This document shows positions 7,100 through 14,055 of a DNA stretch of 64,000 nt, one piece after another; within the stretch, counting starts at the first letter, position 1, and every line of letters starts with the position of its first letter. This stretch comes from Mobula hypostoma (Eukaryota). The DNA lies in assembly GCF_963921235.1 (NCBI RefSeq), contig NC_086097.1, positions 23,624,001 through 23,688,000 on the forward strand. The letters run 5' to 3'. The notes under the pieces are model-generated. The model did no database searches, was not told where the DNA came from, and worked only from the letters and a program-made list of their open reading frames with translations. A program made the position numbers and the translations under genes.

Positions 7100-7670
7100 C
7101 GAACACAGTAGGTCAGGCAGCATCTATAGAAAGGAAAGAAAAATTGACATTTCAGGCCAAGACCCTTCATCAGGACTGGAAATGAAGGAGTAAAATGCCA
7201 GAAATAAGAAGACTGGTGGGCGGGAGTGGAGGGGAAGGAATACAAGCTGGAAGATGATAGATGAAGCCAAGTAAGGGGAAGATGGGTGGGTAGGCGAGGG
7301 TGGAAAAGGTTAAAGAGCTGAAGAAGAAAGAATCTGATAAGGGAGGAGTGTGGACCATGGGGGAACGAGAAGGAGGAGAGGCACCAGAGGCAGGTGATGG
7401 GCAGATGTGGAGAAGAGAAGGGGCTAGAGGAGAACCAGAATGAGGGAGGAAAAAGAGAAAAATGGGAACGGGAGAAATTACCGACATGCTGTCAGGTTGA
7501 AAGCCGCCCATATGGAACATGAGGTGTTGCTCCTCCATCCTAAGAGTGGCCTCATTGTAGCAGTATTGGAGGTCATGGACCAATATGTAGGAATGGGAAT
7601 GAGGATTGGAATTAAGATGGTCACCAAGAAATCCTTCTTGTTGCAGATGGAACGAAAGAGCTTGACACAG
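7100..7670 (-). mobile_element. Penelope-like element 3' fragment
   Basis: EATLRMEEQHLMFHMGGFQPDSM (ORF 7170..7583) matches the endonuclease C-terminus seen at 53813-53900; hammerhead-like motif near 7143-7179. Confidence 0.75.
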
Positions 7671-7761
7671 CTGATCAGAAACAACTTCTTCCCAGGGGTG
7701 CAGTGCTAACTTTTTTAGGTGCTGGAGCTGACAAAATGCTTGCCATTTCCTATATCCTCTC

Positions 7762-7884
7762 TATATATATGTCACACCCAATTTGTGTACCTGCTCATTT
7801 CATGTACTGGGCAACTTCCTTGCCCCATTCATGTAATGAGCAGTTACATAAATTGGGTGTGACATATATATATATATATATATA
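7762..7884. repeat. ~95-bp palindrome (MITE-like) flanked by (TA)n
   Basis: TATATGTCACACCCAATTTGTGTACCTGCTCATTTCATG pairs with CATGTAATGAGCAGTTACATAAATTGGGTGTGACATATA (3 mismatches in 39). Confidence 0.85.
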
Positions 7885-8187
7885 GGGCTTCTTATAATGT
7901 CAAGCACTAACCAAGATGAAAGAAATATATGAATTCCAGAGCTCCACAGAAATATAGTGATAGTTAAGACATTAACAAGATTATAGCATATCACTACATT
8001 TCTGTGTGTAACTGGTACATTAAAACATATAATACTTAATTTAATGATATGACAAAGTATTGCACGGTTGCACTTACTAATTATCATAAAATATAATTAT
8101 CAAGCAAGTAAAGAAAAAGACGGTAATCATATATTTTACCAATTTAAGAGTAATTACCTACTTACCAAATGCCACCAATGAGAAGTT

Positions 8188-9864
8188 TCACAATAATTTC
8201 CACGAAGGGTCAGGCGTAATATATGTCCAGGAGTCTGAAGCGACTCTTGGCCTGGTGTCATCTGCTGATCTGTGGTACCGCAGCCATGATGTGACATACG
8301 GCTCAGGATTCCACTGAAATAGAGGAGGTCTGTGTAGTTTAACAAACATAAGTGCTGATACATGCTCTATGAGAATTCTTGAGTGTGTTGTTGTTATTAC
8401 CAAGTTCATGTGACTGAATCCTCTCACACTCAGCAGTACTAATAGGAATAACTTGTGAACAGCTCAGTAATGGGCGTAAATCTTGGGGGATGCCGCATCC
8501 AGAATCCTCCACATAATCTCTGAAGGCATTTATTACAGAGGAAGAAGAAAGCTTAAACCTCTTACAGAGAGATGATATTGCAGCTTCTCCATAATTAGGT
8601 GGTATTTCAGCAGGCCAGTTATCTTTATCAAGAACACACATTTCATTTAGCAGGGATTTATACATACCTTGAAGTTTAAAAGTTTGAGAACCTTTCAAGG
8701 ATGTTGCTGTGAAGATACGGTGCTGCAAATTGTTTATAAGACTAGTAAGAAACTGTAGATAATTAATGGAAACAATTTTGTTTTGCTTGTTAAGGTAATT
8801 TCTCCAAACTTCCCCTTTTCAGCTGCCTCTTGAGCTTCTAGAGTTTTTGTACCAGGTTGCTCTTTCAGTCCATGCAGTGACCTTACGCTCCATTGGATCA
8901 GTTTGTCTGCATAAACAATCGTAGTAGTGTGTTTCTGTAAACACTCTGACAGTAAACCAAGTTCATGCAACGTGTCATACATTAGAGCCAAGTCCAATGG
9001 AAACTGTTCTGAAGAGAGTCTTTTCAACAGACCTTCATAGGTTTTTCTGTCACTCCAGATCTTGTTTCATCCTTCGTTGCTTTTTCAAAATGAAAACCCA
9101 GTGCTTCATAATTTTGCCACACTGCTGAAACTGTTTGAAACGAGCTAGCTACCCACCTGGTGCCCAGAACACGGCCTATTTTGCAAATTTGTTGTTCTAG
9201 TTGAGAGGCACATTCAGACAGTTCCTTTTGATTTAGAGGTGATCTACTGGAAACAGAGTACAATTTGTCCATAAATGATTGAAAATGGTTTATTCCATAA
9301 ACTGCTCTCACTGAATCACCTACTGCAAATTCTAATCTGTGATTAAGACAGTGCCAAATTTTCATATCAGGGTAATGTTCCTTGAGAATTGTAGCAACAC
9401 TAGATTTGACACCAAGCATTACGCTCGCCCCATCACTAGCAAATGCTACAAGGTTCTGTTTCAAGTAAGAGTCATCAGACCCATGGTTATTGAGACAGTT
9501 CAATAGATGCTTAGCAATAGTTGCAGCTTTCTGATCAGGCAGTTCAATTAGATCTAAAAACATAAAATGGGGATCGCCTTCCTTATCACTTTCACATTTC
9601 AAATAAACTACTAGGGCGGTCTTGATGCTCAGGCTTGTTGATTCATCAATGAGAACAGAAAGTTTGCCATTTATCTGTTTGATATGCTAGCAAATTTTCT
9701 TTTTCATATTAATAGCTATGTGATTAATTATCTCTGTATCACTAGTGCGGGAATGCAGTCCAATTCCAATGTCAATACCTTTTTTTTTGAAGTTCCAATA
9801 AGCCAAAGTGATCAGAGTATGGTCTATCATTCTGAGCTAAATAATATGCAGAACAAAAAATTGA
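8188..9864 (-). pseudogene. hAT transposase (ZNF862-like), frameshifted with internal stops
   Basis: Motifs in order: AYYLAQNDRPYSDH, LIDEST (first catalytic D, read by hand near 9640), ASDGASVMLG (second D), HCLNHRLE (CxxH), TRWVAS, PISTAECERGFS (catalytic E, across a frameshift). ORFs 9024..9602, 8734..9027, 8339..8728, 8188..8427. Confidence 0.88.
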
Positions 9865-10046
9865 ACGAACCAGAGAGACCATTTTTGCCATTGTAGGGGT
9901 AGCACTAACACTTCCACGAATTTCAGCTTCTTTCTGCTTTATTGTGCGAATGCTCGATTCCTTCTCACCGAACTTGCGGCCCACTTTGGCAAGCGACATG
10001 CCACTTTTCAAAAGATCTAAGATTTTTATTTTCTCGGCGAACAATG
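9865..10046 (-). pseudogene. Tigger/pogo (CENP-B-type) N-terminal HTH fragment
   Basis: EKIKILDLLKSGMSLAKVGRKFGEKESSIRTIKQKEAEIRGSVSATPTMAKMVSLVR resembles the HTH_psq N-terminus of Tigger transposases. Confidence 0.75.
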
Positions 10047-10739
10047 CTCAAACAACGAGTGCTGGAGAGAGACTGAGGATCGGTGAAATGGCGGGAGGCT
10101 ACAGCAGGGAATGCTGGGACAACGGGTCAAGCGAGGAGGAATTTCACAAATACCTAAATAAAAAACAATCACAGCTCCAGGATTTCACCAAAAACGATCA
10201 AATATCCTAATGTTATTCGTGGTATTTTCCCCACCAGCCACCACCCCCTCTCCCCAACCCCCAATTCCGTAAAATTCCCGCTATTTAATATGCGGCCGCT
10301 GTTAAATTCCCCGCTTGATTATTATGACTTTTTTTTTACAGAGGTGCTGGAGTGGTGCTCGGGTGAGCTCCGGAACACTGCCCCCTGTTTCTTCCCCTCT
10401 GCCATTGCCTTATAGGGATGAACACTACCTCACTATTCCTCTTTTTCCCAATTTATTTATTTTATTTCTTATTGTAACTTAATAGTAATTTGGTATATCT
10501 TACCTTCCACTGCTTCTACAAAATAATAAATTTCATGGCATGTCAGTAACAATAAACCTGCTTCAGATTATTTCTGATCCCTTAATGAACTTGTGTCCCT
10601 TTGTTATCGGACTTCCTGCCAATGGGAACAAAATCTCCATGTCTACCCACAAACCTTCATAATTTTGAATGCCTGTTTTGGGTTTTTCGATAATGAAAAC
10701 AATTGAATCCTATCTCACCCCCTTACCCAAGTTTTAGCC

Positions 10740-11050
10740 TTTAGCACAACGCTTTACAGTGCCAGCTGTAAGATCTAGGTTTAATTCCCACTGCAGTCTT
10801 TAAGGAGTTTGCACCTTCTCCTCATGACAACGTGGATTTCCTCCATGTGCTCCAATTCCATCCCATATTCTAAAGGATTGTGGGTAAAGGCATTAGTGAG
10901 TTGTGAGCATGCTATGTTGGCACCGGAAGCATGGCAACACTTGTGGGCTGCTGAGCAGAATCCTGGCTAATTCGATTTAACGCAAACAATTTCACTGTAT
11001 GTTTTGATGTTTCAATCTTCATGTAAAAAATAAAGCTCATCTGAAGCTAA
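10740..11050 (+). mobile_element. V-SINE (HE1-like)
   Basis: Decayed tRNA head, V-domain TAAGGAGTTTGCACCTTCTCC...GGATTTCCTCC, and AATAAAGCT tail. Confidence 0.7.
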
Positions 11051-11699: not shown

Positions 11700-12010
11700 A
11701 CGGCATGGGAGCATAATGCTTTACAGTGTTATTGATCAGCGATTGTGGTTCAATTCCCACCTCTGCCTTGAAGGAGTTTGTACATTCTCCTCATGACTGC
11801 ATGGGTTTCTTCCGGGTGCTGCGGTTTCCTCCCGCATTCAAACGATATACAGGTTCTTGTTAGTGAGTTGTGGGCTTGCTGCATTGGTGACATTTCCACA
11901 CCGCCTCCAGCACAATCTTCAGACTGAGTTGCTAGTTGACGCAGAACAACACATTGCAATGTGCATTTCGATGTTTCAATGTACATGTGACAAATAAAGC
12001 TAATTTAATC
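11700..12010 (+). mobile_element. V-SINE (HE1-like)
   Basis: GGTTCAATTCC B-box, V-domain GGAGTTTGTACATTCTCC...GGGTTTCTTCCGGGTGCTGCGGTTTCCTCCC, and ACAAATAAAGCTAAT tail. Confidence 0.75.
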
Positions 12011-13209: not shown

Positions 13210-14055
13210 TTCAAGCAACACACATGAAAGTTGCTGGTGAACGCAACAGACCAGGCAGCATCTCTAGGAAGAGGTGCAGTCGACATTTCAGGCCGAGACC
13301 CTTCGTCAGGACTGACTGAAGAAAGAGTGAGTAAGGGATTTGAAAGTTGGAGGGGGAGGGGGAGATCCAAAATGATAGGAGAAGACAGGACGGGGAGGGA
13401 TGGAGCCAAGAGCTGGACAGGTGATAGGCAAAAGGGATACAAGAGGATCATGGGACAGGGGGTCCGGGAAGAAAGACAAGCGGGGGGGACCCAGAGGATG
13501 GGCAAGGGGTATATTCAGAGGGACAGAGGGAGAAAAAGGAGAGTGAGAGAAAGAATGTGTGCATAAAAATAAGTAACAGATGGGGTACGAGGGGGAGGTG
13601 GGGCATTAGCGGAAGTTAGAGAAGTCGATGTTCATGCCATCAGGTTGGAGGCTACCCAGACGGAATATAAGATGTTGTTCCTCCAACCTGTGACGTGACA
13701 AGTGGAAGAGTTAACTGGCTGAAGCAAAAGGAATCTGACAGGAGAGGAGAGTGAACCATAGGTGATAAAGAAGGAGATGAACCAGAGGGAGATAACAGGC
13801 AGATGAAGAGAAAAGAATGGTTGGGGGGGGAGCAGAATGGGGAATGGGAAAAGAGAGAAGTGGGTTTGGAGATAATTCACTGGAAGTTGGAAAAATCGAT
13901 GTTCATAACATCAGGTTGGAGGCTACTCGAATGGAATATGAGGTGTTGCTCTCCAGCCAGAGTATGACTTATTCGAGGCAGTAGACAAGGCCAATAACAA
14001 ACATGTCAGAATGGGAATGGGAAGTGGAAATGATACGGGTGGCCACCGGGAGATC
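13210..14055 (-). mobile_element. Two adjacent Penelope-like 3' fragments (13210-13690 is better preserved)
   Basis: Purine-rich UTR, repeated TCGATGTTCAT...CAGGTTGGAGGCTAC endonuclease-end sequence, and a hammerhead at 13277-13314. Confidence 0.75.
13277..13314 (-). ncRNA. Minimal type I hammerhead ribozyme motif (Penelope-associated)
   Basis: Minus strand reads CAGUC-CUGACGA-AGGGUCUCGGCCU-GAAA-UG-UC-GACUG: 5-bp stem I, intact CUGANGA and GAAA cores, short stem II, vestigial stem III and a GUC cleavage triplet. Confidence 0.8.

What the first reader, a model, noticed from the sequence alone, without database searches (positions are those of the whole stretch)
9772..10046. Tigger-type HTH fused in frame to a hAT transposase inside hAT ends
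Seen: ORF 9772..10044 reads a ~60-aa Tigger/CENP-B-like HTH (EKIKILDLLKSGMSLAKVGRKFG...MVSLVR) straight into hAT sequence (SIFCSAYYLAQNDRPYSDH), with the junction near 9864. All of it lies between hAT TIRs with an 8-bp TSD, and I see no Tigger TIR. Known: hAT transposases normally begin with a BED- or TTF-type zinc finger, and psq-type HTHs belong to the pogo/Tigger group. Inferred: either a cross-superfamily chimeric transposase that moved as a unit, or a Tigger insertion followed by deletion that is in frame by chance (1 in 3). This copy is dead: a frameshift follows at the T-run near 9780 and there are stops.
Basis: partly seen in the sequence, partly recalled or inferred. Interest (0 to 1): 0.7.

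Follow-up and report, generated by a model that had tools for sequence, protein, structure and literature searches.

The report
Tigger scrap riding a hAT transposon
One jumping gene (Tigger) landed inside another (hAT), and deletions left a piece of its DNA-binding region joined in frame to the host's broken enzyme gene; this composite was copied around the genome, most likely as a passenger rather than as a working hybrid enzyme.

Summary
A 91-aa frame (9772-10047, minus strand) joins a CENP-B_N helix-turn-helix (E 8.9e-6) to hAT sequence inside hAT ends (7693-10387, TSD 7/8). The genome shows the whole history. There are Tigger-free hATs with the empty TA or an excision footprint, hATs that still hold the Tigger 3' TIR ahead of the hAT's own ATG (consensus ORF 740 aa, zinc-finger start), and many deletion derivatives. 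The window's junction occurs at 3 loci. A longer in-frame sibling junction occurs at 87 loci, with distinct TSDs, so the composite did move as a hAT. A working chimera is unlikely: the Tigger ATG and first helix are missing in 105 of 105 copies, only 4 of 9 independent junctions are in frame (chance, P 0.35), non-fused derivatives also spread, and 0 of 84 copies are intact. A frameshift before the catalytic core is the commonest state, but the templates' frame there is unresolved, and the element's first ATG is in the fused frame. A fused protein is therefore not excluded. The scan noted this composite before, on another piece of this genome (e1-9399189).

The parts
7685..7692 (+). 8-bp target-site duplication, copy 1 (CTTCTTCC)
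   Evidence: read; 7 of 8 match to 10388-10395
7693..7707 (+). hAT terminal inverted repeat at the element's 3' end
7693..8187 (-). hAT 3' arm, with a 53-nt inverted repeat (7762-7872) and a (TA)n run
8188..9866 (-). remnant of the KIAA1586-like hAT transposase gene, codons 180-740 of the family consensus; own ATG and zinc finger deleted; 4 frameshifts and 1 stop
9780..9788 (+). T-run (A-run in element sense) that breaks the frame before the first catalytic Asp; the same length is the commonest state in sibling copies
9865..9866 (-). Tigger-to-hAT deletion junction, in frame, 2-bp microhomology (GT); present at 3 loci
9772..10047 (-). 91-aa stop-to-stop fused frame without a start codon at its 5' end; first Met at 9997-9999
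9865..10040 (-). Tigger coding fragment (CENP-B_N helix-turn-helix plus linker)
10036..10114 (-). Tigger 5' untranslated fragment, joined to the coding fragment by a 134-bp deletion (5-bp microhomology) that removed the Tigger ATG
10115..10387 (-). hAT left arm ending in a degenerate terminal inverted repeat
10388..10395 (+). 8-bp target-site duplication, copy 2 (TTTCTTCC)
   Evidence: read

Best explanation
This is a dead 2.7-kb deletion derivative of a hAT transposon that carries the remains of a Tigger element which inserted at a TA in the hAT's 5' leader, and it was most likely moved in trans by an intact, zinc-finger-bearing transposase of the same hAT family, the in-frame join being likely accidental. 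Shown: the empty TA site, hAT copies with both Tigger coding sequence and the Tigger 3' TIR, loss of the Tigger 5' end and ATG, at least 9 independent Tigger-to-hAT-coding deletions at short microhomologies, and spread with hAT ends and 8-bp TSDs. Inferred: the TA-CAG-TA and TA-CCTG-TA sites are Tigger excision footprints; the deletions came from interrupted gap repair; the transposase source was an ATG-bearing variant; everything happened in one short burst.
For: Tigger-free hAT: 7 of 30 leader loci examined (of 50 matches) plus 4 more; 2 have a single TA, 1 TA-CAG-TA and 8 TA-CCTG-TA. The Tigger 3' TIR plus TA joined to the hAT leader occurs at 30 loci. L181, L182 and L281 hold the HTH region and the 3' TIR together. 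The consensus of 35 ATG-bearing copies gives an open 740-aa ORF with a CxxC...H...H start that aligns with 9 homologs. The Tigger ATG region is present in 0 of 105 HTH-bearing hAT-family copies, and the hAT left arm in 0 of 30 ATG-bearing Tiggers. 4 of 9 junctions are in frame, P 0.35. Non-fused derivatives also spread: C junction 12 loci, K 7 of 141 sampled copies. TSD matches of at least 7 of 8 in 64 of 96 copies with both ends. 0 of 120 listed homologs match the Tigger part. BED is needed for Hermes excision (PMC10368747, Introduction).
Against: The most abundant derivative (87 loci) is an in-frame fusion, and 61 of 64 copies keep the frame at the junction. In its consensus the first ATG from the element's 5' end is the in-frame internal Tigger Met. 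The A-run is in frame in 18 of 63 copies, 2 copies keep the uninterrupted-frame TT form, and a slippage model cannot tell 8-, 9- and 10-A templates apart (lnL -208.1, -207.9, -209.9); a mix with about 30% in-frame templates fits best (-204.5). No intact source element was found (0 of 84), so the trans-acting source is inferred. Selection on the HTH could not be tested because embedded and free consensuses are identical.
Confidence: 0.85

Rival explanations
1. The abundant sibling (87 loci) encoded a working hybrid transposase of about 748 aa. It would start at the internal Tigger Met and use the complete Tc5 helix-turn-helix in place of the hAT zinc finger, which would explain its high copy number.
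For: In-frame junction in 61 of 64 copies; first ATG of the consensus is in the fused frame; L126 has 311 open codons from the HTH past the first catalytic Asp, with HTH_Tnp_Tc5 at E 1.9e-8; the template's A-run frame is unresolved.
Against: The copies lack both Tigger TIRs that such a domain would be expected to bind (binding specificity recalled). Helix 1 of CENP-B_N would not be translated, and the CxxC half of the zinc finger is gone. The A-run is out of frame in 45 of 63 copies. The one supported sub-clade with an in-frame run (L128-L130) has a stop at that spot. The in-frame share of junctions equals chance.
Confidence: 0.06
2. The fused frame was translated but gave a non-catalytic product (about 218 aa if the frameshift holds). 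It could act as a repressor of Tigger through the Tc5 domain, or as a poison subunit of the hAT transposase, and tolerance or selection by the host would have helped these copies accumulate.
For: The first ATG is in frame; the 234-aa consensus frame holds the whole Tc5 domain; free Tigger and the composite have similar ages.
Against: No expression data; all copies decay with frameshifts and stops; the window's variant has lost the Tc5 domain altogether.
Confidence: 0.06
3. The three loci with the window's exact junction arose by three separate deletions at the same microhomology, so this particular junction never moved as a unit.
For: The three share only 1 substitution, at a site changed in 41 copies, and are not a supported clade; the TSD of L100 is unresolved.
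Against: Both breakpoints are identical with only 2 bp of microhomology. All 3 keep a 15-bp block found in only 8 of 68 sibling copies. The whole family tree is star-like (95% terminal length), so few shared changes are expected.
Confidence: 0.08

Closest known systems
KIAA1586-like hAT transposases (database name; P0001 Latimeria 78% identical, P0003 with Dimer_Tnp_hAT)
   Same: The catalytic core, the CxxC...H...H N-terminal finger in ATG-bearing family members, CAGGGG-type ends and 8-bp TSDs.
   Different: The window's copy has lost codons 1-179 and carries a Tigger piece in their place; 0 of 120 listed homologs has a Tigger-like part.
pogo/Tigger elements (free family in this genome, L004, L005, L224-L253)
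   Same: CENP-B_N and HTH_Tnp_Tc5 domains; the embedded consensus is identical to the free consensus beyond the deletion point.
   Different: The embedded piece has no 5' TIR, no ATG and no DDE region, and moved with hAT ends and 8-bp TSDs instead of TA.
Microhomology-born deletion derivatives: Ozma to Gnome/Elf/Goblin (PMC3814204, abstract seen)
   Same: Several non-autonomous families from one parent by internal deletions at microhomologies, each then amplified.
   Different: Here the parent is a nested two-superfamily composite, the microhomologies are 2-5 bp rather than 6-8 bp, and most derivatives are 1-4 kb long.
Pack-TIRs (PMC8277862, passages seen) and MER6 carrying the SINE V domain (PMC6887750, search listing only)
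   Same: Foreign sequence carried between TIRs and amplified by transposition.
   Different: The cargo came in by its own transposition at a TA (empty site and footprints seen), not by template switching, and it is another transposase's DNA-binding region.
Hermes (PMC10368747, Introduction read)
   Same: hAT architecture, about 3 kb, 8-bp TSD.
   Different: Hermes needs its BED finger for excision; the fused derivatives lack the equivalent finger in whole or in half.

Membership tests
hAT superfamily element | short TIRs and 8-bp TSD | tested here: met
   window 7 of 8; 64 of 96 copies with both ends match at least 7 of 8
hAT superfamily element | transposase homologous to hAT DDE enzymes | tested here: met
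   256 homologs, best 78% identical; homolog P0003 has Dimer_Tnp_hAT at E 1.8e-5; the window's own frames gave no Pfam hAT hit
autonomous hAT element | N-terminal zinc finger and own start codon | tested here: not met
   deleted in the window copy (junction at codon 180); present in ATG-bearing relatives (weak zf-C17orf113 hit below cut-off)
autonomous hAT element | intact transposase ORF | tested here: not met
   window copy has 4 frameshifts and 1 stop; 0 of 84 long copies are intact
pogo/Tigger element | CENP-B_N / Tc5 helix-turn-helix domains | tested here: met
   CENP-B_N E 8.9e-6; Tc5 only in the longer sibling
pogo/Tigger element | Tigger TIRs with TA target duplication | tested here: not met
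   absent in the window copy; the 3' TIR plus TA survives at 30 relatives
functional chimeric transposase | continuous ORF with start, DNA-binding domain and catalytic core | tested here: inconclusive
   native ATG absent in 105 of 105; internal in-frame Met present; consensus is broken at the A-run but the template's frame is unresolved
functional chimeric transposase | purifying selection on the fused frame | tested here: inconclusive
   consensuses identical to the parents and a star-like tree leave no branch to test
functional chimeric transposase | excision and integration activity | not testable with these tools
   needs a cell assay
non-autonomous deletion derivative | parent ends kept, internal deletion, several copies with distinct TSDs | tested here: met
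   3 loci for this junction; sibling has 33 distinct TSDs in 33 of 44 copies

The most novel reading that the evidence does not exclude
Part of the 87-copy sibling lineage made a Tigger-hAT hybrid protein of about 748 aa: the Tc5 helix-turn-helix in place of the zinc finger, on a complete hAT catalytic core, started at the element's first ATG. It transposed or regulated the family, a natural DNA-binding-domain swap between two transposon superfamilies caught with all its intermediates.
Probability: 0.07. Interest if true: 0.75.

Novelty: new member of a known kind. Interest (0 to 1): 0.3.

Why it matters
As a passenger case it is an unusually complete record of one transposon nesting in another: empty site, insertion, likely excision footprints and a series of deletions, all amplified in one burst. 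It shows how nesting plus deletion can produce in-frame cross-superfamily fusions by chance, which is the raw material for domain swaps. It also warns that such fusions in repeat consensus libraries need not be hybrid enzymes. If the sibling fusion were active, it would show that a hAT core can work with a foreign DNA-binding domain, which bears on transposase evolution and retargeting.

Tried and rejected
Intron reading of the roughly 425-bp gap: rejected, because the missing piece is coding sequence of both parents. Splicing into the HTH frame to supply a start: the best acceptor-like AG is out of phase and a TGA closes the frame; not tested on RNA. A rescued sub-lineage (L128-L130, in-frame run): has a stop at that codon. 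My interim claim that the sibling's template was frameshifted: only the commonest state, not resolved by the model. L158 and L159 were counted as stub variants but are Tigger-free. Rows dropped before the 4-of-9 count: 5 copies in 4 classes with secondary indels at the sibling junction (L170, L190, L193, L194, L195); the phase of L177 is uncertain. Pfam found no hAT domain in the window's frames or in L144. Sequencing runs: no RNA holder listed; no reads or contigs were laid, so expression and presence of the junctions in other species remain open. Earlier findings by sequence: nothing. Literature searches listed no paper whose title or abstract start describes a Tigger-in-hAT composite; the phrase 'chimeric transposase' had 0 occurrences in the 15 of 19 papers listed. 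Repbase and Dfam could not be searched, and no supplements were read.

Full report
Observation. The minus strand has a 91-aa stop-to-stop frame at 9772-10047. Residues 3-44 match CENP-B_N (E 8.9e-6, above cut-off). The last 30 residues belong to a KIAA1586-like hAT transposase whose core has 256 homologs, the best 78% identical. The element runs from 7693 to 10387 between hAT ends with a 7-of-8 TSD (read). It has 4 frameshifts and one stop. The frame has no start at its 5' end; the first Met is residue 17.

Copy numbers. The window's exact junction occurs at 3 loci (20-nt pattern, at most 1 mismatch, control 0). The sister L099 has its own 8-of-8 TSD; the TSD of L100 is unresolved. Most relatives have about 425 bp more at this point: further Tigger coding sequence (the Tc5 domain) and hAT codons 117-179. 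That longer junction (G) occurs at 87 loci and is in frame in 61 of 64 copies examined. The join between hAT left arm and Tigger occurs at 135 loci, the window included. Of 96 sampled copies with both ends, 64 have a TSD matching at least 7 of 8; for G it is 33 of 44, all distinct. The composite therefore moved by hAT chemistry.

History. A free Tigger family with TA-flanked TIRs and its own ATG exists. Its consensus equals the embedded consensus apart from the first 7 positions at the deletion point. Among 30 of 50 loci with the hAT leader start, 22 have the Tigger 3' TIR plus TA directly upstream, 1 has a deletion across the site, and 7 are Tigger-free. Four more Tigger-free loci were found. 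Of these 11, 2 have a single TA, 1 has TA-CAG-TA and 8 have TA-CCTG-TA, 6 of which may be one duplicated segment. I read the last two forms as excision footprints (footprint pattern recalled for Tc1/mariner-type elements, not from a call). L181, L182 and L281 keep the Tigger HTH region and its 3' TIR inside hAT ends, and the TIR-to-leader join occurs at 30 loci. About 0.9 kb further on lies the hAT's own ATG. The consensus of 35 such copies is an open 740-aa ORF, whose CxxC...H...H start aligns with 9 homologs (zf-C17orf113 hit weak, below cut-off). So Tigger inserted in the hAT leader, lost its 5' end and, in the HTH-bearing branch, 134 bp with its ATG (5-bp microhomology). Separate deletions then gave many variants. 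Group divergences are 3.4-4.2%, the G consensus has no substitution against the ATG-bearing consensus, and 95% of the tree of 101 copies is terminal branch, which points to one short burst (inference).

Against a working chimera. The Tigger ATG region is in 0 of 105 HTH-bearing family copies, and 0 of 30 ATG-bearing Tiggers have the hAT left arm. Of 9 independent Tigger-to-hAT-coding junctions, 4 are in frame (P 0.35 at one in three), after dropping 5 copies with secondary indels at the G junction. Derivatives with no fusion also spread (12 loci for C; 7 of 141 sampled for K). G and the window's variant have no Tigger TIR and lack half or all of the zinc finger; the Hermes paper states that the BED finger is indispensable for excision in vitro (PMC10368747, Introduction read). 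The G consensus of 40 copies breaks at an A-run before the first catalytic Asp. 0 of 84 long copies are intact, and 0 of the 120 listed homologs (of 256) match the Tigger part.

For a chimera. The most numerous variant is in frame, and its first ATG from the 5' end is the in-frame internal Met. L126 is open for 311 codons from the HTH past the first Asp. The A-run is in frame in 18 of 63 G copies and has more long alleles than a control run of 8 A (Fisher P 0.002). A stepwise slippage model fits 8-, 9- and 10-A templates about equally and a mix with about 30% in-frame templates best. Pure-A runs also occur in Tigger-free copies, so which state is ancestral is unclear. Selection could not be tested, and expression is unknown (one search listed no RNA holder, which is no evidence either way).

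Comparison. It works like the microhomology-born deletion families of PMC3814204 (abstract) and like multicopy Pack-TIRs (PMC8277862, passages), except that the cargo arrived by its own transposition. Four literature searches listed no description of this composite; repeat libraries were not searchable. An earlier AI note on another piece of this genome (e1-9399189) reached a similar verdict without copy numbers. My reading was set before I saw it. The data here show that the composite was copied many times and came from a true nested insertion. Those notes call the genome ray-like; I did not test that.

Verdict. A real, mobile, non-autonomous hAT-Tigger composite (confidence 0.85), a new member of a known kind, interest 0.3. 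A hybrid protein from the G lineage remains possible (about 0.07 for a functional role) and can be tested directly.

Noticed in passing
L271/L284, L280/L298, L259/L299, L158, L159, L265, L266, L285-L288: Tigger-free hAT copies with a single TA, TA-CAG-TA or TA-CCTG-TA at the insertion site; likely empty sites and excision footprints copied along with the hAT. The 6 copies on small contigs C109, C140 and C148 share one structure and may be one duplicated segment.
   Followed up: yes
L128-L130 (C2), L204-L207 and L210 (C62), L122-L123 (C67): Supported small clades of sibling copies lie within a few Mb on one contig with different flanks, which suggests local hopping.
   Followed up: partly
L118, L206: Fusion-junction copies that carry the TT form of the A-run typical of the stub variant; possible mosaics from template switching between family members.
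   Followed up: partly
window 7762-7872: 53-nt inverted repeat (89%) in the hAT 3' arm next to a (TA)n run; many copies break or are deleted at this point.
   Followed up: no
L004, L005, L224-L253: The free Tigger family is mostly a 1.6-kb internally deleted form, about 90% alike between copies; no full-length copy with a whole DDE region was sought.
   Followed up: partly
L173 (C73:9490950-9498100): Two fusion-junction copies in tandem, with further internal duplications.
   Followed up: no
window 10778-11040, 11747-12004; 7100-7550, 13230-13960: Dispersed SINE/LINE-like repeats, 60-80% alike, flank the element.
   Followed up: no
P0086, P0089; P0019, P0025 and others: Two hAT homologs carry precomputed Tc1-type domains (PF13358, PF01359), possibly gene-model fusions; several carry PF02338 (OTU-like protease by a source's name).
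   Followed up: no
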